64,000 nucleotides of DNA from Verrucomicrobiia bacterium (GTDB lineage Bacteria; Verrucomicrobiota; Verrucomicrobiia; Palsa-1439). The notes below the pieces were generated by a model. That model saw only the letters and a list, made by a program, of their open reading frames with translations. It did no database searches and was not told the DNA's origin. This document shows positions 5,393 to 47,030 of the stretch, piece after piece (positions within the stretch are counted from its first letter, which is position 1; each line of letters starts with the position of its first letter). The stretch is taken from assembly GCA_022072455.1 (NCBI GenBank), contig JAJVHY010000012.1:233236-297235 (forward strand). Direction: 5' to 3'. The position numbers were made by a program, and so were the translations under genes.

Positions 5393-6973
5393 ATGCCCAC
5401 GTTGCACTGGCACAAACGCGAGGAAGCGGTGCGGGCGGCGACTCGTGCGCCGTACCGGCTGCTGGAAGCATTGCCGGAGTTGTCGTATGGCGACGCGGCG
5501 AGCGAGAACCTGCTGATTCAGGGCGACAACCTCGACGCTCTCAAAGCTCTGTTGCCGTACTATGCCGGGCGCGTCAAATGCGCCGCGATTGATCCGCCGT
5601 ACAACACCCAGAGCGCGTTTGCACAGTACGACGACAACCTGGAGCATTCGATCTGGCTCTCCACGATGTACCCGCGCCTCGAACTACTCCGCGACCTGCT
5701 CGCCGATGACGGCTCGATCTGGGTTTGCATGGATGACAACGAAGCGCACTATCTGAAAGTTGTCATGGACGAGGTCTTTGGCCGAAAGAATTTCGTCGCT
5801 AATGTGGTGTGGCAGAAAAAATCTTCGCCACAAAGCAATGCGACTTGGCTCTCCGACAGTCACGACCACGTCTTGTGTTACGCCAACAACAAGGAAATCT
5901 GGCGGCCAAACAAGCTGCCACGAACGGAAGACCAAAACGCAATCTACAAGCACTCCGACGAATTTGACGGTATCAATTCCGACGGCAGCTTCTATGGCCG
6001 AGGGCCTTGGTTTCCCGGTGACTTCACGTTGAGTCTCGCATCTGGGCAACGCGGGAAGCAGTTCGCAAAGACCGGTGAGAGTGCGAACATTTATCCCATC
6101 ACGACTCCTTCAGGCAGAGAGGTTCTTCCCGCAAAAGGACGCGCTTGGGCATATACGCAAGAATCGTTTGCGCGACTTCTGCGCGAACATCGCGTCTTTT
6201 TCGGTCAGCGCGGGAGCAACAAGCCGTGCATTAAGCGCTTCTTGACCGAGATACAAGATCGCGGAGTTGTACCCATGACTACATGGCATTACTCCGAAGT
6301 GGGTGAGAACCGCATCGCCATGCAGGAAGTCAAACAGTTCGATGAGAATAGCCCATTTGCCACACCGAAACCAGAAGCGCTCCTTATGCGCATTGTCACC
6401 ATCGGCACAAATCCCGGCGACATCGTGCTCGATTCGTTTCTCGGTTCCGGCACGACGTCGGCGGTAGCGCACAAGATGGGGCGGCGGTGGATCGGGATTG
6501 AGTTGGGCGAACACGCGGTGACGCATTGTGTGCCACGCTTGAAAAAAGTCGTGGATGGTGAGCAAGGTGGCATTTCGGAGGCGGTCGGTTGGAAGGGCGG
6601 CGGCGGATTCCGGTTTTGCCGGCTCGGCCCGCCGATCTTTGACGAGAACGCGCATATCAATCAGAGCATCCGGTTCCCGGTGTTGGCGGCGCACGTTTGG
6701 TTTTCGGAGACGCACACGCCGCTGGTGAAAGCGGGCAAGTCGCCGTTGCTGGGCGTTCACAAGGAAACCGCATACTACCTGTTGTTCAACGGCATTCTTG
6801 GCGACCAGAGCAGGGATGGCGGGAACGTGCTGACCGGTAAGTTGCTGGCGAAGTTGCCGAAACACAACGGGCCGAAGGTGATTTACGGAGAATGCACCAG
6901 TTTGGGCGAGGATCGGTTGCGGCGCGAGCAGGTCGCCTTCAAACAGATCCCCTACGACGTGAAACACCGGTGA
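5393..6973 (+). CDS. mod: type III restriction-modification system methyltransferase (Mod), N6-adenine
   Basis: Has the DPPYN catalytic motif and the FLGSGTT AdoMet motif. It is followed by res. GC is about 55-58%, lower than the genome background. Confidence 0.85.
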   Translation: MPTLHWHKREEAVRAATRAPYRLLEALPELSYGDAASENLLIQGDNLDALKALLPYYAGRVKCAAIDPPYNTQSAFAQYDDNLEHSIWLSTMYPRLELLRDLLADDGSIWVCMDDNEAHYLKVVMDEVFGRKNFVANVVWQKKSSPQSNATWLSDSHDHVLCYANNKEIWRPNKLPRTEDQNAIYKHSDEFDGINSDGSFYGRGPWFPGDFTLSLASGQRGKQFAKTGESANIYPITTPSGREVLPAKGRAWAYTQESFARLLREHRVFFGQRGSNKPCIKRFLTEIQDRGVVPMTTWHYSEVGENRIAMQEVKQFDENSPFATPKPEALLMRIVTIGTNPGDIVLDSFLGSGTTSAVAHKMGRRWIGIELGEHAVTHCVPRLKKVVDGEQGGISEAVGWKGGGGFRFCRLGPPIFDENAHINQSIRFPVLAAHVWFSETHTPLVKAGKSPLLGVHKETAYYLLFNGILGDQSRDGGNVLTGKLLAKLPKHNGPKVIYGECTSLGEDRLRREQVAFKQIPYDVKHR

Positions 6974-29885: not shown

Positions 29886-30525
29886 TCCTTATCCTCGGAC
29901 TCTTCCTTTTCGTCCGCCTCGTCGGCGGCATCGCCGAACACCGCCGTGGTTTGCATCGGCCGGCGGCGATCCTTCTCGATCAAGGATTGGCATTGTACAC
30001 AGTTCTTTGCAAACGGCACGGCTTCGAGACGTTCCTTGCGAATCGGTTTCTCGCACATTTCGCAGATGCCAAACGTGCCGGCTTCGAGGCGCTTGAGGGA
30101 TTCTTCAATCTCGTAGAGGGCTTCCTGCTCATTCGAGACGAGGCTCAACGCAAATTCGCGGTCGAAATTATCAGTGCCGGCATCGGCCATGTGCATGCTG
30201 TAGCCGCTCAACTCACCGGACGTGTCGCGCGCGGTCCGCTTGAGATTGTCACTCGCCAAAAAGTTCACGCCATCAATCAAATGATCGCGGAGTTCAACCA
30301 GCAAGCGCTTGTATTTCGCGGCGTCGCCTTGGGAAAGTTTCAGCTTCTTCGGCTCCACGAAGACGTCTTCCGCCGGTAACACCGGCGCCTTGACGGGCTT
30401 GGTCGGTTTGACCGGCTTGACCACCTTGGCGGCTTTGGTCTTCGGCGCGGGCTTGGCTTTAGCTTTGGCTTTGGCTTTGGCTTTGACTGGTTTGGTCGGC
30501 TTCTTGGCTTTGGTTTTCTTCATGA
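29882..30525 (-). CDS. DksA/TraR-family C4 zinc-finger protein with a Lys/Ala-rich histone-like N-terminal tail
   Basis: CEMCEKPI...CVQC zinc finger at the C-terminus. The N-terminus is KKTKAKKPTKPVKAKAKAKAKAKPAPKTKAAKVVKPVKP. It lies between ileS and lspA. Confidence 0.7.
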
Positions 30526-37753: not shown

Positions 37754-38386
37754 CTACGGAATCGGATTCACGCCGCCGTTACTCACCACCGCCGCCAACC
37801 GGTCCAGCGCCTCCGCCATCGTCTCGGGCGGACTGCCGGCCCAATGACCGGGATTGGCCGGCGAATACGCGCCGGTACTGAACGCTTGCCCATTGCCGGC
37901 TTTCAACGTCCCATCCGCCCACGTCGCCGCCACCGTCAACCCATCGCTGCCGATCAGCGTCCGCAACTGCGGATTGAGAAACCCCTGCCCCGCCCCGTCG
38001 TTGAGTTGCGCCCCCGGATCGTCCACGCCGGGAATGTAACCGCGAAACCCGACGATCGGCTGGCCGGCCGCATTGCAGAGGGCATGCTGGGCGGTGTTGA
38101 GGACCGGCGTGTTGGTCGCCGAATTGTTCACCGAGTTTTTTACTCCGACGTGCCCGGCATTGATGATGTCCTGTTCATCGCACAGCAACGCCCCGGTCAA
38201 GGGACTGGTCAACGCCGCATCAAGCCGCGCCTTGTCGCCGGGCACAAACTGCGCCGCTTCCGACCCGGTAAAGACCGGGTCAGTCTCCGGCACGTCGATC
38301 AAGTCCTTGAGGCCGGTGAATTGGTTGCGGAGTTCCGCCGACGTGAGCGGCGAATTGGGCGCCGGTAAGAGTGGGTCAAAGGGCAT
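37754..38386 (-). CDS. hypothetical protein, phage tail-fibre-like
   Basis: 210 aa, Gly/Asn/Thr-rich. The C-terminal ...NPGHWAGSPPETMAEALDRLAAVV resembles tail-fibre motifs. There are no enzymatic motifs. Confidence 0.55.
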   Translation of the reverse strand: MPFDPLLPAPNSPLTSAELRNQFTGLKDLIDVPETDPVFTGSEAAQFVPGDKARLDAALTSPLTGALLCDEQDIINAGHVGVKNSVNNSATNTPVLNTAQHALCNAAGQPIVGFRGYIPGVDDPGAQLNDGAGQGFLNPQLRTLIGSDGLTVAATWADGTLKAGNGQAFSTGAYSPANPGHWAGSPPETMAEALDRLAAVVSNGGVNPIP

Positions 38387-38480
38387 GGTTTCTTAGCCAC
38401 AGATTCACACGGATGAAACACAGTGGGAACTCCGGTATCTGTGCCCATCTGTATTCATCTGTGGCTACCTTTCACCGCTA

Positions 38481-39377
38481 TTAGCCTCCCACAATCACGG
38501 TGGCCTCGGCGCTCCATTGGCCCATGCGTTGGTCGCCGACCCGGTAAATCGCCCGGTACTGCCACTTCGTCGGCGTCGTCGGAATCGGGAACGTGTCCAC
38601 GTAGCCGGGCGTGGTATCAATGGCCAGCAACCGCCAGCCTTGTCCGTCGCCCCGGTCGACTTCGATTTCGCACTGGTCGAGGAACGCCGCCTTCCCGCGC
38701 CACGTCCAGCCGACCGTCACAGCCGCCGGCGCACGGGTGAGCTTGAGCACGGGACCGAACACATTCCAATCGGGCGCACCATCTTCGCTGCCGACCATCC
38801 CGAGGTCGCTGATGATCGCCTCCGTGCAGGTGGGTTTGTTGCGGATGTCCCGGACGAGCGTGAAGACGCGTGTCAACGCCCCGGCCTCGACCGGCGTCGC
38901 GCCCGCGGGACCGGTAAACGTGGGCAACGCCATCGCCCCCGGCAACGTCCCAAACTCCGCGTCCGCGACGGCATCGGTGCAGGACTTGGAGAAGGTGCGC
39001 ACTGCCGGCAACCACGTGCCGATTACGTAGATCAACCAGTCACAATCCGCCTGCGCGGCAGTGACCTGCCCCGCGGCCAACGTCAACGTCGTGGCGTAGA
39101 GCGGGAGTTTGTTGCGGAAATTTCCGAGCCAAAGGACTTGGTCGGCGTTGCCGGAAGGGAAGTAGGAGTTATGCGTCATGCGTTGTTTCCTTTTGGTTGG
39201 GGGTGGAGTGGGAGCGGCCGGCGGGACATAACCCGGGTCGCCCGGTTCGAGCAGATAACTGGGATCGCCCCAGTAGGCGTTTGGGTCGTCGAGATGCGTC
39301 CCGTCGTCCAAATGGATGGTTCTCATAAAGTGCGGCGGCGGTTCCCCCAACTCCGCGGGGAGCCGCGGCGAATCCAC
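38481..39377 (-). CDS. hypothetical protein with a C-terminal fibronectin-III-like domain
   Basis: 298-aa ORF with a GTG start at the edge of the repeat array. An alternative ATG is at 39326. The C-terminal ...TPTKWQYRAIYRVGDQRMGQWSAEATV is FN3-like. Confidence 0.5.
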   Translation of the reverse strand: MDSPRLPAELGEPPPHFMRTIHLDDGTHLDDPNAYWGDPSYLLEPGDPGYVPPAAPTPPPTKRKQRMTHNSYFPSGNADQVLWLGNFRNKLPLYATTLTLAAGQVTAAQADCDWLIYVIGTWLPAVRTFSKSCTDAVADAEFGTLPGAMALPTFTGPAGATPVEAGALTRVFTLVRDIRNKPTCTEAIISDLGMVGSEDGAPDWNVFGPVLKLTRAPAAVTVGWTWRGKAAFLDQCEIEVDRGDGQGWRLLAIDTTPGYVDTFPIPTTPTKWQYRAIYRVGDQRMGQWSAEATVIVGG

Positions 39378-39673
39378 GGGGAGCCCGGTTTAGAGCACGG
39401 GGAGCCCGGTTTGCGATTGGGGGCGCCGGGGTTGCGGCTGGGGGAACCCGGAAAATCGTGCGGGGAGCCCGGTCTGGAGCAAGGGGCGCCGGTTCGGCCG
39501 CTGGGGGAGCCCGGAAAACTGTTGGGGGAGCCGCCGCTGGCGTTAGGGGAGCCCGGAAAATGGTGCGGTGAGCACCCCCAACTCCAGACCCGGCTTCCCC
39601 AGCCGTTAGGTGAGCACCCCGCGCCGTAGCAGCGGCTCCCCCAACGATTAGGGGAGCCGGTTTTGGGGCGTTG
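39357..39673. repeat. tandem array of about sixteen 21-bp direct repeats with a near-palindromic core GGGGAGCCCGG
   Basis: Units are seen at 39357, 39378, 39399, 39420, 39440, 39462, 39483, 39503, 39525, 39546, then double-length units at 39567, 39609 and 39651. There are no spacers, so this is not CRISPR. Confidence 0.8.
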
Positions 39674-39910
39674 ACGGCTGCTTTCAGCGGATTTTGGGCT
39701 GTTTCAGGCACGCGCGCACCCTACCGGAAGGCAAAAATCGCTTCCTCTAAGATTCCCGCATTCGTCTCTAAGATTCCGCGGGCGGGCTCCGGCGCTTCGG
39801 ATGCCACTCCGGGCTTGTCCCGGTCACCCCGCGTTCCTGCGTCGTTCCGGTAAGAGCCACGCCGGACTGAAGTTGACCGGTCCGCCGAACTCTGGAGTGT
39901 AAAAGGCGTG

Positions 39911-40045
39911 TTGCCCAAATCGAAATTTGGGCGTTTTGGTGTAGCGGCGCTTCTGTGAAGCGCCAAGTTTCCTCGAGAATTGAACGACCCGCGCTTCGCA
40001 GAAGCGCGGCTACAACCGGCAAATGCATTTGGGCAAAACGCCCTC
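39911..40045. ncRNA. candidate structured RNA or REP cluster
   Basis: Contains the hairpins GCCCAAAT-CGA-ATTTGGGC, GGCGCTTC-TGT-GAAGCGCC and CGCGCTTC-GCA-GAAGCGCG, and the palindrome CAAATGCATTTG. An enclosing long-range pairing GGGCGTTTTGGTGTAGC...GCTACAA...CAAAACGCCC surrounds them. Confidence 0.3.
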
Positions 40046-40347
40046 AAGCGTTGACCCCGGTGAACTGGCGTTGACCGACCTCAATTCGCACGCAGTGCGA
40101 GCGGTCGTGATGCCGGGTCAGTGAAACTTTCTAGCTGAAGGCCGACAGCAGACCTGTCACGCCAAAGCCTCGGCGAAGGTGGAAAGCCGGTAGCTATTTC
40201 CCGCGCTTCCCCCTCACTGGGGCCGGTCAACAGGGGGGAAACTATCGTGAACTCACTTCGTCGCGAATTTGCAGACTCATGTGTCCCCTGTCTCAGCATA
40301 CGCGAAGCTTGAAGACTTCTTCTCGCTACAGGATACTCCCAACTTCA

Positions 40348-41328
40348 ATGGAGCAATTTGGTGCAGAGATAAGTAACCCAGTTTCGACGGGGGGCGCCGG
40401 AAACAATTTCGAGTGCCACGTCCAAACGCTGTTTGCGGTTTTGATGCTGGCTGGAGGCGTGTGCCCCTGCCTGCCGAACTGGCCGGCCAGCAGAATCCAA
40501 TTGCAAGGCAAACATGACGGTTACCAAACCGATGATGTCATCGTTTTCGCCCGCAACCCTGACAGCGGACAGGAAGCCAAATTACTGGGTCAGATACGGC
40601 TTTCGGTTGCCATCACGAAGAAAAACAAGAAGTTTGGAAAGGTCATCCGCCGTGCGCTGGAGGATTTTCGGAACCCGCAGCTATTCAACGAGAAAACTGA
40701 CGCAATTGCATTGATTACTGGCCCGTTAAGCGCGAGCGATAATGAAAGCGTTCGTTCCCTTCGTGACTTAGCACAGTACGCTCCGACCGCGAAGGATTTC
40801 CTTGGTAAATTCGAATTGGCTAAGTTCATGAGCGAAACGAAACGGCAGAAGTTCCGAGCTATCCGGGCCCAATTGAAGGCCGCGAATGATGGAGAAGATC
40901 TGCCCGAAGATGAGCTGTGGCGTTTCATGAAGAGTTTTCACTTTCTGAGCTACGATTTGGAATTCTCATCGGGAGCCACGCTGTCGCTGATCCAGTCGGT
41001 CCTCGCACAATTTGGGATTCGCGACGTTGCTGGCCTCTGGGGAAAAGTGAATGAAGAAGTTCGTATGTGCAACCAAAATGCCGGAACGCTGCTGTGGGAT
41101 AATGTCTCCGAAGATCTCCGTCAAACCTTCTCGAAGCGCATTGTGTCGACGCCGGCGCGAGACGAACGTACTCCTCCCGCAGAACAGGATTCGCAGAAGC
41201 AAGTGGTCGAACGTGTACAAGGTGTGCAGGCTGACGCAATGGTGATCGCTGCGCTTGCCGGTGGATTTAACGATAAGAAGAAGGCAGATCTCGAAAGCCT
41301 CAACAAGCTGGTGGGTGGCGATGATTAA
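40348..41328 (+). CDS. hypothetical protein (gene A of the low-GC cassette), possible PD-(D/E)xK-like nuclease N-terminal domain
   Basis: 326 aa at GC ~50%. The N-terminal spacing E(FECHVQ)...D(TDDVIVF)...EAK(QEAKLLGQI) fits the nuclease core pattern. Its stop overlaps the gene B start by 8 nt (ATGATTAA). Confidence 0.55.
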   Translation: MEQFGAEISNPVSTGGAGNNFECHVQTLFAVLMLAGGVCPCLPNWPASRIQLQGKHDGYQTDDVIVFARNPDSGQEAKLLGQIRLSVAITKKNKKFGKVIRRALEDFRNPQLFNEKTDAIALITGPLSASDNESVRSLRDLAQYAPTAKDFLGKFELAKFMSETKRQKFRAIRAQLKAANDGEDLPEDELWRFMKSFHFLSYDLEFSSGATLSLIQSVLAQFGIRDVAGLWGKVNEEVRMCNQNAGTLLWDNVSEDLRQTFSKRIVSTPARDERTPPAEQDSQKQVVERVQGVQADAMVIAALAGGFNDKKKADLESLNKLVGGDD

Positions 41329-43903
41329 GAACCGTGAAGAACTGATTTCGGCCTTGCAGGATGTCTCACTGTTACCGAACTCTCCGCTTAAGCAAAAGGA
41401 CGGAAGATGGCGGGTCGCTGAACGCGTTGAGACGTGGAAAGCTATCGGCCCCAAAATATTTGATGAGCATTTAGATCGACTCAAAAAAGTCGCAGTCGAT
41501 GTACTGCGGGAACGTGATCCTCAGTTCGAATTGAAACCCGAGCAGCGGTACGCAGCAAGCATGCACGGGAAGGTGTTGGAGCATTCGCAGACGCTTAGGA
41601 AGGGATTAGCTGAAACATTAGCTCTAATGGGCAGTCTTCCCCAAGTCTTAACGTCCTGCACACACACCAAACCCGAAAACACAGCTGCTCTAGCGGTTCG
41701 AGAGATACTGCAAGATGCAGATTGGGTACTGTGGGCGAGTCTTAATCCCCAGTTGCCGTTGCTTGCAGAAGCCGCACCGGACGAATTTCTTCATCAGGTT
41801 CAAAAGGCCTTAATCAAGCATCCTTCGCCATTTCTGGAAGTGTTTTCGCAAGAAAGAAACGGAATTGCCGGCAGGAACTACCTGACTGGTCTTCTATGGG
41901 CTCTTGAGACGCTCGCTTGGAATCCAAGCCTTCTAACACAAGCTATCGTTATCCTAGGCGATCTGGCTGCAATCGACCCAGGAGGAAATTGGGCAAACCG
42001 TCCGTTCAATTCAATCGTAGACGTACTCTTACCATGGCATCCACAAACCTGTGCCGACATCTCGAAGCGAAAAGCTGCTGTTGTCGCGCTATTGCGCGAT
42101 CATCCCAAGATTGGATGGAAGCTGCTACTCAGCTTATTGCCAAAGGGTCATGAAACCACTTCTGGCACACAGAAGCCTTCATTCAGAAGTTTTATTCCTA
42201 CTGAATGGTCGGAGAAAGTTACAAACCTTGAATACTGGGACCAAGTTAAAGGCTATGCAGAACTGATAGCGAAATTAGTTTTGGAAGATCGATCTAAGCT
42301 GACTGAAGTTGTGGAACATTTTCCCAATTTACCAGAGCCGTCCCGTTCTAAGATCCTTGAGCACTTACGCTCGAAAAAGATTGCCGATTTACCGGAGTCT
42401 GAACGTTTGCCTGTATGGGAAGCCTTGATGGATCTTGCCGCCAAGCATCGAAATTTTGCCGAGTCGGACTGGGCTCTTCCGAAAGAGTATGTCATACAGT
42501 TAGAAGAAATAGCGGCGACATTGTCTCCAGCCGATCGCACGCTGCTATATCGGCGCCTCTTCAGTAGCCGTGATTTCGAATTGTATGAAAAGCTTGGCGA
42601 CTATGCTGAGCAGGAAAGACAACTAGACGAACGTCGCCGTCAAGCAATCGGAGAAATTCTGGAACAAGGCGCTCTAAATGGAATTCTTCGCTTTGTTCGT
42701 CAAGTCCAGTCTCCCGAAAAAGTCGGAAGTGCTCTTGCGTTCGTTGACTTCGACGAAGTCGGTGAGGGGTTGATTCCGAATTATCTTGAAACGAAAGACC
42801 AATCTCTTGGCCCGTTTATGCGGTCTTTTGTTTGGACGCGCTTTTACGTTAAGAAATCACCCTGGCTTGATAGCTTACCTGTGCAGAATTGGTCTCATGA
42901 GCAAAAGCTTCACTTGTTGCTTTTCTTGCCATTCGTCCCTGAAGTTTGGGACAGAGCACGACAGCTTATCGAGGACGTGTCGCTCTACTGGAGAAATGCC
43001 AATGTCCGTCCTTACGGACTTAAAGAACATGCGAAAACAGCTGTTGAGTGTCTTCTCGACAATGGTCGTCCGCTCGCCGCGATATCCTGCCTCTATGTGA
43101 TGATCAACGAGGGAATTCCGTTTTCCGCGAATCTTGCAATAGCTGCGCTGAAGCAAGCTACAAGTACGAAGCCCAAGGAAGATAAATTCGACACCCATCA
43201 GGTGCTTGACGTAATCAAATGGCTGCAGGCTAATCCAGATGTCGAGGAAGTGTTGCTTGCAGCAGTGGAATGGAGCTACCTATCTCTTTTGAGAGAGCAT
43301 TCAGGCGTAACGCCTAAGACGCTAGAGCGCCACCTAACTCGAGATCCAAAGTTTTTCTGTGAAGTAATTGGATACGCTTTTCGTTCCGAAAAAGAACGGA
43401 ATACGGACCGGCAGGCGACGGAAAAGGAGAGAAACATTGCACAAGGTGCTTATCGATTGCTTCATGAATGGAAGAGCATACCAGGAACGAAACCAGACGG
43501 CTCTTTTGATGAAAAGCTATTTGACCAATGGCTCCAAGAGGTAAGGAGAATAACAAGTAAATCGGGACATCTCGGAATCGCGTTGGATCAAATAGGCAAA
43601 GTACTCGCCCACGCACCGCCGAGCCCTGATGGTCTTTGGATACATAGCGCGGTTGCTGAAGTCTTGAACGCAAGAGATGCCGAAGAAATGCGCGCAGGGT
43701 TCTCTTGTGAGCGCGTTAATATGCGTGGTGTCCACTGGGACACCCAAGGCAAGCAGGAACGAGAGATTGCGGACGACTACAATCGAAAGGCAGATGCGCT
43801 AGATGAAAAGGGGTTTGCCCGAATTGCTGCTGCCGTTCGCGGAATTGCCAAGAGTTTTGAGCGGGAAGCGGAACTGGACATTCGCCGCACAATTGAAGAG
43901 TAA
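41321..43903 (+). CDS. hypothetical large alpha-helical protein (gene B of the low-GC cassette)
   Basis: 860 aa at GC ~46-50%, Trp/Leu-rich and helical. It has no Walker A, DExH or other NTPase motif. Confidence 0.55.
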   Translation: MIKNREELISALQDVSLLPNSPLKQKDGRWRVAERVETWKAIGPKIFDEHLDRLKKVAVDVLRERDPQFELKPEQRYAASMHGKVLEHSQTLRKGLAETLALMGSLPQVLTSCTHTKPENTAALAVREILQDADWVLWASLNPQLPLLAEAAPDEFLHQVQKALIKHPSPFLEVFSQERNGIAGRNYLTGLLWALETLAWNPSLLTQAIVILGDLAAIDPGGNWANRPFNSIVDVLLPWHPQTCADISKRKAAVVALLRDHPKIGWKLLLSLLPKGHETTSGTQKPSFRSFIPTEWSEKVTNLEYWDQVKGYAELIAKLVLEDRSKLTEVVEHFPNLPEPSRSKILEHLRSKKIADLPESERLPVWEALMDLAAKHRNFAESDWALPKEYVIQLEEIAATLSPADRTLLYRRLFSSRDFELYEKLGDYAEQERQLDERRRQAIGEILEQGALNGILRFVRQVQSPEKVGSALAFVDFDEVGEGLIPNYLETKDQSLGPFMRSFVWTRFYVKKSPWLDSLPVQNWSHEQKLHLLLFLPFVPEVWDRARQLIEDVSLYWRNANVRPYGLKEHAKTAVECLLDNGRPLAAISCLYVMINEGIPFSANLAIAALKQATSTKPKEDKFDTHQVLDVIKWLQANPDVEEVLLAAVEWSYLSLLREHSGVTPKTLERHLTRDPKFFCEVIGYAFRSEKERNTDRQATEKERNIAQGAYRLLHEWKSIPGTKPDGSFDEKLFDQWLQEVRRITSKSGHLGIALDQIGKVLAHAPPSPDGLWIHSAVAEVLNARDAEEMRAGFSCERVNMRGVHWDTQGKQEREIADDYNRKADALDEKGFARIAAAVRGIAKSFEREAELDIRRTIEE

Positions 43904-44367
43904 ACGAACACGCGTTAATTCGAAAATCCGAACCCAGGTCAACTCCCCACCTCCCACACGATAACTCCTTGATGATCTCCGGGCGAAGCTGTCTGCTGTC
44001 AGCGGTCAGCTATCAGCTGTCGGTGGTCAGCGGTCAGCATTCGGCGGTTGACGGGGTTCGTGGGGCAACAACTCACAACTATTGCATCGAGTTTAAGAAG
44101 CTCGACGTGAATTAAGGCCGGTTGGTTTGGTTCAAGACGCACAGCGAACTCGCCCGCCATGCCTAAGGCCCCCAGAAAACCGACCACCCGGCACTGCGGC
44201 CTGTTCGATTTTGACTGAAAACGGTCAAAAATGTCAGCGGCCGACACAATTGTACTTCTTTCTTGCCGTAATAGCTCGGAATCTTCCGCGGCACATTGAT
44301 TGCTGAAAATGGGCCGCGCGGCTGCAATGGCCGCCTCTGAAAACTCGGTAACTCGAAAGGATTCATT

Positions 44368-46595: not shown

Positions 46596-46699
46596 CGCAC
46601 CGGCAACTGCCGAACAGAAACCTCACCGTCAGCACCACCCACCTACCGGGCGCATTTCTTACCGAAGTGATTGGGGATTGCCAAGCTGGTTTGCGGAAG

Positions 46700-47030
46700 A
46701 CAGGAGTCAGGAGGCAGTAGGCAAAAGACAGTAGGCAGAAGTCAGAAGTCAGAAGTCAGGAGTCGTGAACATCCGCCTGCCCTGAATGCGTTCGGGGTGA
46801 ATGGCTACTCCCACTTTTCGTCTTTCGTGTCATTTCGTGCATTCCGTGGTTAACCGGAGCAGCGGGGGCAGTGGGCAGAAGACAGTGGGCAGAAGTCAGG
46901 AGGCAGTATTCGTGAATCCCACCGGCTCATCTGCCGGTCGCGGCGCAGAGGCCGCTCCCACTTTTCGTCTTTCGTGTCATTTCGTGTATTCCCGCCGTCG
47001 CCTGGCCTTTGGCGTGCATTCCGTGGTTCT
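46700..47030. repeat. tandemly duplicated ~160-bp element upstream of cimA/leuA
   Basis: Each copy has a CAGNAGN heptamer tract (x9 at 46701-46763; x6 at 46869-46910). Each also has the conserved block CTCCCACTTTTCGTCTTTCGTGTCATTTCGTG(C/T)ATTCC(GTGGTT) (46808-46851; 46955-46992, with the tail at 47014-47028). Confidence 0.75.

What the first reader, a model, noticed from the sequence alone, without database searches (positions are those of the whole stretch)
37754..39377. Two orphan tail-fibre/FN3-like hypothetical genes with no other phage genes nearby
- Both proteins are Gly/Thr/Pro-rich and have no enzymatic motifs.
- The first ends in a ...EALDRLAAVV-type tail-fibre C-terminus. The second ends in a fibronectin-III-like domain.
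- They are wedged between housekeeping genes (ptsN-like on one side) and a tandem repeat array. No capsid, terminase or integrase gene is present.
- They could be a receptor-binding or adhesin module, a remnant of a tailocin/GTA-like element, or a target of a diversity-generating system located elsewhere.
Basis: inference. Interest (0 to 1): 0.55.

Follow-up and report, generated by a model that had tools for sequence, protein, structure and literature searches.

The report
Repeat-array-led fibre gene cassette, Verrucomicrobia
The two 'orphan phage-like' genes are not prophage debris: together with the neighbouring tandem repeat they form one copy of a multi-copy Verrucomicrobia cassette, undescribed in the libraries I searched, in which a strictly 21-base-phased repeat array sits in front of a conserved FN3 protein gene, here followed by a mosaic fibre-like gene.

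Summary
Both ORFs are real genes: A at 37754-38386 (-), and B at 38481-39326 (-), 281 aa rather than 298. B ends in an FN3 fold. A belongs to a small mosaic family with collagen and tail-fibre-type repeats. No phage, tailocin, reverse transcriptase or template repeat lies in the 64 kb, and neither protein has relatives in phage collections.

The main result is that the 'flanking' tandem repeat belongs to gene B.
- B's family has 307 loci in reference genomes and 2288 50%-identity clusters. Every named source is Verrucomicrobiota, apart from a few MAGs with odd labels.
- It is multi-copy and scattered among unrelated housekeeping genes.
- All 43 loci analysed carry a 21-bp-period array just upstream. 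Array sequences differ between loci, and about 44% have dyad-symmetric cores.
- 17 of 61 relatives carry a perfect 7-8-nt microsatellite inside a mini-ORF behind a sigma70-like promoter. The window copy has only a degenerate remnant.
- A strong hairpin usually follows B. An A-type gene follows in about 12% of loci.

Most likely this is a self-contained expression cassette for a non-Sec structural protein pair, controlled by a long repeat-bearing leader. The mechanism is inferred. No curated family matched and my literature searches found no description of the architecture. Interest 0.64.

The parts
37754..38386 (-). Gene A (210 aa, PCFJNLEI_01772): mosaic fibre-like protein. It has a conserved N-terminal module (about residues 1-33, helix 16-30), a variable middle and a conserved C-terminal module (about residues 150-210).
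   Evidence: ORF. 100% match to P0001, and 5 paralogues in the same MAG. Family alignment and mosaic paralogues. No Pfam, PHROG, NCBIfam, PADLOC or PDB hit. An HMM of the N-module finds it next to B in 10 of 80 loci.
38394..38467 (-). Stem-loop filling the B-A spacer, with 22-nt arms at 38394-38415 and 38446-38467. It is terminator- or attenuator-like but has no U-tract.
   Evidence: Inverted repeat, 82% complementary. RNA fold -39.3 kcal/mol, z = -4.87, 0 of 200 shuffles as good. Unrelated but equally strong stem-loops occupy the same place in 7 other B-A loci. Strong hairpins or terminators follow B in about 8 of 12 loci without A.
38481..39326 (-). Gene B (281 aa, PCFJNLEI_01773 / MCG3148330.1). 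Layout: conserved N-peptide (residues 1-36), disordered basic linker (37-49), invariant internal Met50 (39179-39177), helical domain (about 60-175) and FN3-like domain (about 191-281, 38484-38756).
   Evidence: Start fixed by 94% homologue coverage and by the deposited 281-aa protein. Alignment A1. Model with pLDDT 81.6. FN3 Foldseek hits. The codon pattern shows frame 0 is coding throughout and the N-peptide is the most conserved segment.
39329..39664 (-). Array of 16 units of exactly 21 nt, ending 2 nt before the B start codon. The core is CCGGGCTCCCC, or its reverse complement in 5 units.
   Evidence: TRF periods 21 and 63. All 5 exact core copies in the 64 kb lie here, in 21-bp register. 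Unit table. Lag-21 self-identity is 0.49 against about 0.26 background, and the same period is seen in 43 of 43 related loci.
39665..39900 (-). Upstream leader remnant; the boundaries are approximate and inferred. It holds the conserved stop motif TAG-GGTGCGCG (TAG at 39723-39721). The stretch 39741-39790 aligns with the (CGGAACGG)n microsatellite of relative L007. In the window that stretch holds no perfect microsatellite, only two 21-nt GGAATCTTAGAG copies. A degenerate CGGAACG remnant lies at 39829-39850.
   Evidence: Sequence. Alignment with L007 and L006. Motif and layout in relatives. No consensus sigma70 promoter detected in the window copy.

Best explanation
Window 37754 to about 39900 (minus strand) is one copy of a self-contained cassette. 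Every named source of it is Verrucomicrobiota, apart from a few MAGs with odd labels. Its order is: long 5' leader, then a 21-nt phased repeat array (16 units) running up to the start codon, then gene B, then a strong stem-loop, then gene A.

**What the proteins probably are (inferred)**
- B has a conserved N-peptide, a helical domain and an FN3 domain. A is a mosaic fibre-like protein. Both lack a signal peptide.
- I infer they are structural partners. B would be the invariant component, perhaps the more abundant one. A would be the exchangeable fibre or tip that docks through its conserved N-module.
- They would act at the cell surface or in a released particle.

**How expression is probably controlled (inferred)**
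- The array is transcribed as part of the leader, because only 2 nt separate it from the ATG.
- It acts as a cis-regulatory device at the nucleic-acid level.
- In relatives, a sigma70-like promoter drives a mini-ORF holding a perfect 7-, 8- or 14-nt microsatellite. Depending on repeat number, that ORF either stops at a conserved TAG just after the microsatellite or runs stop-free through the whole array to the B start.
- I therefore propose that ribosome transit (or its absence) across the array sets B expression by translational coupling or anti-polarity. Microsatellite slippage would give ON/OFF phase variation.
- The window copy has lost the perfect microsatellite and has no AUG-led upstream ORF. 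It is probably a fixed, non-switching version.

**Shown versus inferred**
- Shown: the anatomy, the family-wide conservation and the non-phage context.
- Inferred: the structural role, the B-A partnership and the frame-gated mechanism.
For: **Family and context**
- 526+ homologues, 307 confirmed loci in reference genomes with up to 6 per MAG, and 2288 50%-identity clusters.
- In an all-against-all comparison of neighbours, only B itself is conserved.
- Upstream neighbours are unrelated housekeeping genes ending 460-1260 bp away. Downstream genes are diverse.

**Array**
- The best lag is 21 in 43 of 43 loci. Mean identity is 0.495 at lags 21, 42 and 63 against about 0.26 background and 0.29-0.32 in controls.
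- Arrays hold 4-18 units and end 0-430 nt (usually under 200 nt) before the ATG.
- Distant B-analogues also have arrays.
- Two orthologous arrays (B 90% identical) show no indels. Their substitutions split 11/11/11 by codon phase but cluster at fixed positions within the 21-nt unit. This indicates constraint on a nucleotide motif, not on a peptide.

**Transit by ribosomes**
- At least one forward frame is stop-free over the array and its flanks in 43 of 43 loci. The figure is 31 of 43 for reverse frames and 61% for dinucleotide shuffles.

**Microsatellite and mini-ORF**
- 17 of 61 loci carry at least 4 perfect copies of a 7-8-nt unit, downstream of a TTGACA-type promoter and an ATG, followed at once by TAG or TAA.
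- Leader ORF outcomes are about 6 read-through to near the B start, 6 immediate stop and 3 intermediate.
- The unit sequence differs between two orthologous leaders at the same position.

**Unit boundaries and B-A linkage**
- A hairpin or terminator follows B.
- An A-type N-module lies directly downstream of B in 10 of 80 loci.
- B or a B-analogue with an array lies upstream of 5 of 7 independently sampled A-family genes.
Against: - No experiment or transcript data exist. The transcription start site is unknown.
- The window copy has no microsatellite, no AUG-initiated upstream ORF and no consensus promoter. The frame-gating idea therefore cannot apply to it literally.
- Only about 28% of relatives carry a microsatellite.
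- No repeat-number polymorphism was seen within a population. Contigs from different samples were identical.
- Stop-free frames are common in 62%-GC repeats, so the 43/43 result is only moderately significant, and the loci are phylogenetically non-independent.
- About 44% of arrays have a clearly dyad-symmetric core with half-sites about 10.5 bp apart. That points to a DNA-binding protein rather than ribosome transit.
- About 85% of B loci have no A-type gene, so the partnership is not obligatory.
- The A model was too poor to test a fibre fold (pLDDT 53.6).
Confidence: 0.45

Rival explanations
1. The array works as double-stranded DNA. It would be a phased platform of operator-, iteron- or centromere-like sites, on which a cooperative DNA-binding protein coats one face of the helix and represses, roadblocks or activates B. 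The binder could be an unidentified host factor, or B itself acting in cis.
For: - The period is strictly 21 bp, two helical turns, in 43 of 43 loci.
- Perfect dyad arms of at least 6 bp occur in 19 of 43 consensus units, against 5% of shuffles.
- In the best cases 8-bp half-sites alternate in orientation every 10-11 bp.
- Cores are conserved and spacers are free to vary, both between repeats and between orthologues.
- There is no G-U over A-C excess that RNA hairpins would leave: 238 against 323, with an expected ratio of 0.90.
- The window array RNA is not unusually structured (z = -1.65).
- Known analogue: ParR on the 11-bp iterons of parC, which also autoregulates (PMC2241845).
Against: - Array sequences differ between paralogues in one genome, so each would need its own binder.
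- The only conserved neighbour is B. B has no recognisable DNA-binding domain, and its variable segments are short (residues 37-49 and 1-12). The FN3 loops are conserved.
- About half the arrays, including the window's, have no significant dyad.
- No HTH, RHH, Rep or ParB gene is consistently adjacent.
Confidence: 0.25
2. A and B are fibre or adaptor parts of a phage-derived particle (tailocin, extracellular contractile injection system or GTA-like agent) whose main structural cluster lies elsewhere in the genome. This would resemble the satellite tail-fibre and head-spike loci of RcGTA. It concerns the role of the proteins and is compatible with either reading of the array.
For: - Neither protein has a signal peptide (the sequences show this directly).
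- A's family has tail-fibre-type modularity, with collagen and fibre repeats.
- FN3 domains are common in phage tail proteins.
- There are weak PHROG 'minor tail protein' hits for B-analogues and a 'tail collar' hit over the N-part of an A homologue.
- The genome carries multiple variant copies.
Against: - There are no relatives in 2.9 million IMG/VR contigs or 50,697 GenBank phages.
- There are no PHROG hits for the window proteins.
- No phage-like gene lies within 64 kb.
- No phage-like genes were seen around the loci whose neighbours were Pfam-annotated or scanned.
- The foldseek and PHROG matches rest on generic FN3 and collagen parts.
- Most B loci have no fibre gene.
Confidence: 0.2
3. 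The array is protein-coding. It would encode a 7-residue-repeat polypeptide, either as a separate upstream protein or as an optional N-terminal extension of B.
For: - The period is a multiple of three.
- The forward strand has fewer stops than the reverse strand: 93 against 197. The +2 frame has only 16 stops in 43 arrays.
- In L086 gene callers place a 182-aa ORF over the array, with ATGA overlaps at both ends.
- The B frame stays open far upstream in about a quarter of loci.
Against: - Arrays show no consistent GC3 or codon periodicity, whereas B bodies show 0.62/0.49/0.82 at codon positions 1/2/3.
- Orthologous substitutions are uniform across codon phases, 11/11/11, against 8:2:1 in the adjacent coding sequence.
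- The open frame differs from locus to locus.
- The window copy has no AUG in either open frame.
- Conserved cores with hypervariable spacers, and dyad symmetry, are not coding-like.
Confidence: 0.06
4. The genes are targets of a diversity-generating retroelement located elsewhere.
For: - Only by analogy: fibre-like proteins are frequent DGR targets.
- An Avd-like 23S_rRNA_IVP gene sits between the B-analogue and the A-like gene in L086.
Against: - There is no template-repeat-like second copy of any part of 37754-39377 in the window.
- No reverse transcriptase was found among the scanned genes.
- The C-termini of A and B are their conserved parts.
- The differences between paralogues are whole-module swaps, not adenine-specific point variation.
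Confidence: 0.03

Closest known systems
Simple-sequence-repeat contingency loci of adhesin genes (for example the 7-bp repeats upstream of hmw1A/hmw2A in Haemophilus influenzae; PMC8262952)
   Same: - A perfect short tandem repeat whose unit is not a multiple of 3 lies in the 5' region of a gene for a surface-type protein.
- Relatives sit in different repeat-number or frame states.
   Different: - Here the repeat lies inside a mini-ORF about 400-700 nt upstream of the gene, and a second, 21-nt phased array follows it.
- The unit sequence turns over between close relatives.
- The window copy has no perfect repeat.
- No length polymorphism within a population was observed.
Iteron or centromere-like arrays bound cooperatively by small DNA-binding proteins (R1 parC/ParR, 11-bp iterons that double as operator; PMC2241845)
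   Same: - Helically phased repeats lie directly upstream of the regulated gene.
- Many arrays have dyad cores.
- The sequence is specific to each element.
   Different: - There is no replicon or partition context, and no RHH, HTH, ParB or Rep gene.
- The arrays are chromosomal, multi-copy and much longer (up to 18 units).
- The arrays run up to the start codon and are apparently transcribed.
Leader-peptide attenuation and translational coupling (upstream ORF whose translation state controls the downstream gene)
   Same: - A short ORF follows the promoter.
- The alternatives are early termination or read-through to a stop overlapping or next to the downstream start. There is an ATGA at the B start, and the leader ORF ends between -65 and +4 in four loci.
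   Different: - There is no amino-acid-sensing codon run and no alternative terminator/antiterminator pairing.
- The switch would be genetic (repeat slippage) rather than metabolic.
- No terminator-like site lies in the window array.
Phage tail fibre genes and satellite fibre loci of gene transfer agents
   Same: - A has a modular N-anchor, variable shaft and C-terminal domain, with collagen and fibre repeats in homologues.
- An FN3-containing partner gene is adjacent.
- There are no signal peptides.
- The genes sit away from any structural cluster.
   Different: - No detectable homology of the window proteins to any phage or PHROG family.
- The family is absent from viral collections.
- B is a huge cellular family that usually occurs without a fibre gene.
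Intercistronic stem-loops that set subunit ratios in pilus and fimbrial operons (major subunit gene, then hairpin, then minor subunit genes; from general knowledge)
   Same: - A very stable stem-loop lies immediately after B and before A, in every B-A locus examined.
   Different: - No chaperone-usher, sortase or type IV pilus genes are present.
- The proteins have no signal peptide or pilin features.

Membership tests
Phage tail fibre / receptor-binding protein (gene A) | Sequence homology to characterised phage fibre families | tested here: not met
   - The window protein has no PHROG hit at E <= 1.
- There is no tblastn hit in 50,697 phage genomes, none in IMG/VR and none in PDB.
- Homologues hit PHROG fibre families mainly through collagen repeats.
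Phage tail fibre / receptor-binding protein (gene A) | Location within a tail or baseplate gene module | tested here: not met
   - All identified genes within the 64 kb are housekeeping, transport or regulatory.
- The same holds around the related loci whose neighbours were annotated or scanned.
Phage tail fibre / receptor-binding protein (gene A) | Trimeric fibrous fold | tested here: inconclusive
   - The monomer AlphaFold model has pLDDT 53.6. Only the N-terminal helix (residues 16-30) is confident.
- No multimer prediction was available.
Fibronectin type III domain (C-terminus of gene B) | Seven-stranded beta-sandwich superimposable on FN3 domains | tested here: met
   - Residues about 195-279 have block-mean pLDDT of about 78-93.
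- The top 50 PDB hits are overwhelmingly FN3-containing proteins (probability 1.00, rmsd 2.3-4 A over about 90-105 residues).
- BFVD gives the same result.
Fibronectin type III domain (C-terminus of gene B) | Match to Pfam fn3 (PF00041) at the gathering score | tested here: not met
   - B has no Pfam hit.
- A distant B-analogue scores 23.7 bits, below the cut-off of 25.
Prophage / tailocin / GTA remnant | Capsid, terminase, portal, sheath, baseplate or integrase genes, or att/tRNA borders, nearby | tested here: not met
   - No tRNA is present.
- None of the scanned ORFs matches such a family.
- GC content is native (0.62-0.64) across A and B.
Diversity-generating retroelement target | Variable repeat at the 3' end with a cognate template repeat and a reverse transcriptase | tested here: not met
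   - There is no second copy of any segment in the window.
- The C-termini are conserved.
- The rest of the genome was not available.
Simple-sequence-repeat contingency (phase-variable) locus | Perfect short tandem repeat in the promoter or 5' ORF | tested here: not met
   - For the window copy there are only degenerate remnants at 39741-39790 and 39829-39850.
- The feature is met in 17 of 61 related loci.
Simple-sequence-repeat contingency (phase-variable) locus | Repeat-number polymorphism within or between populations that changes expression | tested here: inconclusive
   - Contigs from the same population were identical or broke at the repeat.
- Two related loci have 5.6 and 8.6 copies.
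- Frame states are spread over the three classes.
- No expression data exist.
Iteron / centromere-like operator array | Helically phased repeats adjacent to the regulated gene | tested here: met
   - The period is 21 bp in 43 of 43 loci.
- The window has 16 units in exact register.
Iteron / centromere-like operator array | Cognate sequence-specific DNA-binding protein encoded alongside, in a replicon or partition context | tested here: not met
   - No conserved neighbour other than B was found.
- B and A have no DNA-binding domain hits.
- The setting is chromosomal.
Known structured RNA families (Rfam) | Match to a covariance model at the gathering score | tested here: not met
   - There were 0 matches in the whole window.

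The most novel reading that the evidence does not exclude
The 21-nt phased array, together with the microsatellite-bearing mini-ORF, is a previously undescribed class of bacterial cis-regulatory leader. A hypermutable repeat would choose the reading frame. Only one frame is stop-free across 4-18 phased repeats and delivers ribosomes to the start of the downstream gene. Alternatively, the array nucleates a locus-specific nucleoprotein filament.

This leader would control a large Verrucomicrobiota-wide family of non-Sec FN3 proteins. With exchangeable fibre proteins such as A, these would build an unknown surface or released structure.
Probability: 0.3. Interest if true: 0.8.

Novelty: new variant of a known kind. 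Interest (0 to 1): 0.64.

Why it matters
- Verrucomicrobiota are abundant in soil, freshwater and gut. Most of their multi-copy 'hypothetical' families are unexplored.
- The finding gives a precise sequence definition of a recurrent unit: promoter, optional microsatellite mini-ORF, 21-nt array, FN3 gene, hairpin. The unit can be recognised in hundreds of genomes.
- It makes two questions directly testable in culturable relatives. First, what a strictly two-helical-turn, three-codon-multiple repeat array does in a 5' leader. Second, whether environmental, non-pathogenic bacteria use repeat-driven phase variation for surface structures.
- It also reassigns many 'phage-like orphan' annotations to a cellular family.
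- It explains why assemblies of these genomes often break at these loci.

Tried and rejected
**Searches that found nothing**
- Pfam, PHROGs, NCBIfam, PADLOC and PDB sequence searches of A and B: no family.
- Rfam on the window: nothing.
- IMG/VR and GenBank-phage searches: nothing.
- Literature searches for 21-bp repeats or tandem repeats in Verrucomicrobia: nothing relevant.

**Ideas tested and rejected or left weak**
- RNA-hairpin reading of the dyads. There is no G-U over A-C excess, and the window array is not unusually stable as RNA.
- Ordinary coding reading of the array. There is no GC3 periodicity, and orthologous substitutions are uniform across codon phases.
- Co-variation of B with array sequence. 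Arrays simply diverge faster than B, so this is uninformative.
- Conserved regulator next door. Upstream neighbours are unrelated housekeeping genes.
- Shared cargo downstream. The genes are diverse, many encoding secreted repeat proteins, and a terminator usually follows B. They are probably just neighbours.

**Attempts that failed**
- Fetching the loci of the four other A paralogues of this MAG: not on record.
- Looking for microsatellite length variation in metagenome contigs: the scan only re-found the source contigs.
- The structure of A: too low confidence for a fold search.
Full report
**1. The observation**

The region holds two adjacent minus-strand ORFs.
- Gene A is 37754-38386, 210 aa. 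It is identical to the deposited 'hypothetical protein PCFJNLEI_01772' of a Verrucomicrobiae MAG.
- The mechanical ORF for gene B runs to 39377. Homologues cover only 94% of it, and the deposited protein PCFJNLEI_01773 (MCG3148330.1) has 281 residues. B is therefore 38481-39326.
- On the left, 9 nt from A's stop, lies a convergent PTS EIIA(Ntr)-type gene. Further left are NAD kinase, TlyA-like, Dxs, XseB and IleRS.
- On the right lies a tandem array, then a low-GC island.
- Pfam scans of 21 flanking genes gave only housekeeping, efflux or regulatory functions, or no hit. There is no tRNA and no Rfam family.
- The 'Gly/Thr/Pro-rich' description is only mildly true.

**2. The proteins**

Neither protein matches any Pfam, PHROG, NCBIfam, PADLOC or PDB sequence family.

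*Protein B.* The AlphaFold model built on 19 homologues has mean pLDDT 81.6.
- Residues 1-38 are a short N-terminal segment.
- Residues 39-54 are a disordered basic linker.
- Helices lie at 60-77, 85-125, 150-162 and 169-175.
- Residues 195-279 form a beta-sandwich. Foldseek hits to PDB and BFVD are all FN3 domains. The helical part finds nothing.
- Across 43 orthologues and paralogues, residues 13-36 (consensus ...DPNLRWGxPSYxLEPGDPGYVPP) are the most conserved segment. Third codon positions there vary normally, so the N-peptide is truly translated.
- Met50 is invariant and follows a Lys/Arg-rich stretch. Most of the wider family is annotated as starting there.
- B has no signal peptide.

*Protein A.* Its family is small, with 32 hits.
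- It has a conserved N-module of about 33 residues and a conserved C-module of about 55 residues.
- The middle is interchangeable: collagen GXY runs, ETDPVF..GDKAKLD repeats, GHNVSELTNDAGY repeats or globular inserts.
- Five paralogues in the same MAG are module mosaics of each other.
- PHROG tail-fibre hits appear only for the collagen-bearing homologues. There is one weak 'tail collar' alignment over the N-part.
- The A model was too poor to use (pLDDT 53.6).
- No relatives of A or B exist in IMG/VR or in GenBank phages.

**3. The family context changes the picture**

- B has 526+ homologues at 90% clustering and 2288 representatives at 50% clustering.
- A pattern scan of one genome per species returned 307 confirmed loci. 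All are in Verrucomicrobiota MAGs or a few with odd labels. Up to six copies occur per genome, and many sit at contig ends.
- An all-against-all comparison of every ORF in 80 loci found only one conserved thing besides B: the non-coding DNA just upstream.
- The nearest upstream genes end 460-1260 bp away and are unrelated housekeeping genes.
- Downstream genes are diverse.
- B is therefore a dispersed, self-contained unit.

**4. The array**

- TRF on the 1 kb upstream of B reported period-21 repeats (or 42, 63, 84, 147) in nearly all of the 61 loci scanned.
- In the 43 loci where the start codon could be fixed, self-identity over -400 to -20 peaks at lag 21 in 43 of 43. The mean is 0.495 at lags 21, 42 and 63, against about 0.26 elsewhere and 0.29-0.32 in control regions.
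- Arrays have 4-18 units and end 0-430 nt, usually under 200 nt, before the ATG.
- The repeat sequence is locus-specific. It is still alike when the B proteins are more than 80% identical, and at background similarity below about 65%.
- Perfect dyad arms of at least 6 bp occur in 19 of 43 consensus units, against 5% of shuffles. Arrays with arms of 4 bp or less (19 of 43), including the window's, show none.
- In the clearest arrays, 8-bp half-sites alternate in orientation every 10-11 bp.
- In the window the array is 16 exact 21-nt units, 39664-39329, ending 2 nt before the ATG.
- All five exact copies of CCGGGCTCCCC in the 64 kb lie there, in register.
- Distant B-analogues not detectable by BLAST also carry the array. 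They share the N-peptide / basic-Met / helical / FN3 layout and sit upstream of A-type genes in L085, L086 and L097.

**5. Is the array coding, RNA or DNA?**

*Against ordinary coding*
- Arrays show no consistent GC3 pattern, while B bodies show 0.62/0.49/0.82.
- In two orthologous arrays (B 90% identical) there are no indels. The 33 substitutions split 11/11/11 over codon phases, yet cluster at fixed positions of the 21-nt unit.

*Against sense-strand RNA hairpins*
- Mismatched dyad positions are G-T 238 against A-C 323, with an expected ratio of 0.90.
- The window array RNA folds no better than shuffles (z = -1.65).

*For passage of ribosomes*
- At least one forward frame is stop-free over the array and its flanks in 43 of 43 loci. 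The figure is 31 of 43 for reverse frames and 61% for dinucleotide shuffles.
- There are half as many stops on the forward strand.

*Conclusion*
- The array is constrained as a nucleic-acid motif.
- At least in the window it is transcribed, because there is no room for a promoter between it and the ATG.
- It is kept open to translation in some frame.

**6. The leader**

- In 17 of 61 loci a perfect microsatellite lies 400-750 nt upstream of B. Units are 7 or 8 nt, with 4-17 copies. A 14-nt unit occurs in L091.
- It lies just downstream of a TTGACA-N17-type promoter and an ATG. A stop follows at once, usually TAG within the motif TAG[TC]GCGG.
- Of the three frames through the microsatellite, typically one stops at once, one stops within about 50-130 nt, and one runs through the whole array to between -70 and +170 of the B start.
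- The ATG-initiated mini-ORF is found in each state in about a third of loci. Read-through examples are L021 (ending in the TGA of the ATGA at B's start), L050, L061 and L075. Early-stop examples are L012, L057, L071 and L072.
- Two orthologous leaders carry different units, (CAGAGGT)n and (CGCGGTT)n, at the same place.
- The window aligns with the leader of L007 but has only degenerate remnants where L007 has (CGGAACGG)6.8. It retains the TAG-GGTGCGCG motif at 39723-39711.
- The window has no AUG-led upstream ORF and no consensus promoter.
- I found no within-population length variation. Contigs from different samples were identical or broke at the repeats.

**7. The 3' end and the link to A**

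- The 94-nt B-A spacer is almost entirely a stem-loop: -39.3 kcal/mol, z = -4.87.
- Seven other B-A or analogue-A spacers have unrelated but equally strong stem-loops (z from -2.75 to -9.9). C/A-rich 7-nt repeats often follow them.
- In 12 loci without A, about 8 have a strong hairpin right after B. Three or four of these are classic hairpin-plus-U-tract terminators.
- An HMM of A's N-module finds it directly downstream of B in 10 of 80 loci and nearby in 3 more.
- Starting from A-family genes instead, 5 of 7 independent loci have B or a B-analogue with an array immediately upstream.
- The pairing is recurrent but not obligatory.

**8. Interpretation**

*Well supported*
- A and B are not prophage debris.
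- 37754 to about 39900 is one copy of a conserved, dispersed cassette. The tandem array is an integral, family-defining part of it.

*Inferred*
- B is the invariant component and A the exchangeable fibre-like component of a non-Sec structure.
- The leader and array control expression.

*Preferred mechanism* (about 30% for the specifics; 0.45 for the explanation as a whole)
- Ribosome transit across the array couples leader translation to B.
- Microsatellite slippage gives phase variation in the relatives that carry a microsatellite.
- The window copy would be a locked version.

*Main rival* (about 25%)
- The array is a helically phased DNA platform for a cooperative binding protein, as in parC/ParR (PMC2241845).
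- The dyad cores argue for this. The lack of any adjacent DNA-binding gene and the locus-specific sequences argue against it.
- The two readings are not exclusive.

*Other rivals*
- A role in a phage-like particle encoded elsewhere cannot be excluded without the genome (about 20%).
- DGR targeting and a coding array are unlikely.

**9. Novelty**

- No curated family matched, and none of my literature searches returned a description of either protein family or of the array.
- The pieces have precedents. These are simple-sequence-repeat contingency loci such as hmw1A (PMC8262952), iteron-like operator arrays, leader-ORF coupling and intercistronic hairpins.
- The combination and the strict 21-nt rule across a family of this size appear undescribed.
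- I rate it a new variant of a known kind (repeat-controlled surface-gene cassette). There is a real chance that the array represents a new regulatory principle.

Noticed in passing
window 40000-44000 (ORFs 40279-41328 + and 41255-43903 +): A low-GC island (0.47-0.54 against about 0.61) lies directly next to the cassette leader. It has a 349-aa ORF and an overlapping 882-aa ORF. The 882-aa protein matches phrog_18693 (unknown function) at E = 1.9e-112 over its whole length, but matches nothing in Pfam, NCBIfam or PADLOC. It is likely a horizontally acquired two-gene island, and it may have truncated the cassette's upstream leader or promoter.
   Followed up: partly
window 43987-44048, 46696-46764, 46869-46899; also 46800-47000: Degenerate heptamer arrays occur in intergenic regions: AGCTGTC x7, GAAGTCA x10 and CAGTGGGCAGAAGA x2. 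A duplicated roughly 45-nt block ('ctcccacttttcgtctttcgtgtcatttcgtg') is also present. The same kind of 7-nt repeat builds the stem-loops after B in L009 and L019. It looks like a REP-like intergenic element shared by these bacteria.
   Followed up: partly
L054 vs L056, about 390-530 nt upstream of B: Two orthologous leaders have conserved flanks and B proteins 90% identical. At the same position they carry microsatellites with unrelated units, (CAGAGGT)n and (CGCGGTT)n. The presence of a repeat is conserved but its sequence is not, which is unusual for contingency loci.
   Followed up: partly
L002/L003/L004, about 420-510 nt upstream of B (locus of P0056): Four near-perfect palindromes, CCGGGAAnnTCCCGG, are spaced 22-24 bp apart. 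They lie upstream of the 21-bp array and downstream of a response-regulator (GerE-type) gene. This looks like a separate transcription-factor site cluster.
   Followed up: no
window 39326 and 39179 (B codons 1 and 50); same in relatives and in B-analogues of L085, L086, L097: Both Met1 and the invariant Met50 sit in an ATGA context. Met50 is preceded by a purine-rich Lys/Arg-coding run. Distant analogues keep the same 'short N-peptide, basic residues, Met' layout. This suggests two translational start sites (long and short isoforms) as a conserved feature.
   Followed up: partly
L086/L087 1129-7863: One analogue cassette lies next to a type II CRISPR-Cas locus (Cas9-like HNH/RuvC, Cas1, Cas2). 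A 23S_rRNA_IVP (Avd-like four-helix-bundle) gene is inserted between the B-analogue and the A-like gene. A small XRE-type HTH ORF abuts the array.
   Followed up: no
L001 (6160-9591), L088 (1-1081), P0140 locus: Large Ser/Thr protein kinase genes (twice) and a histidine kinase (once) are the upstream neighbours of B cassettes. In the 59-locus survey only 2 kinases and 2 response regulators appeared, so this is probably chance.
   Followed up: partly
L080 array (5572-5845) vs L057 microsatellite (5452-5536): The 21-nt unit of L080 (CCAGCTCCTGGTCGACGGCTA) contains the exact 8-nt microsatellite unit of L057 (TCGACGGC). Both MAGs are Chthoniobacteraceae. This may hint that arrays and microsatellites exchange sequence.
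   Followed up: no
window 30453-30485: A (TTGGCT)5.5 hexamer repeat lies between the ORF at 29951-30379 and the 3' end of the IleRS gene.
   Followed up: no
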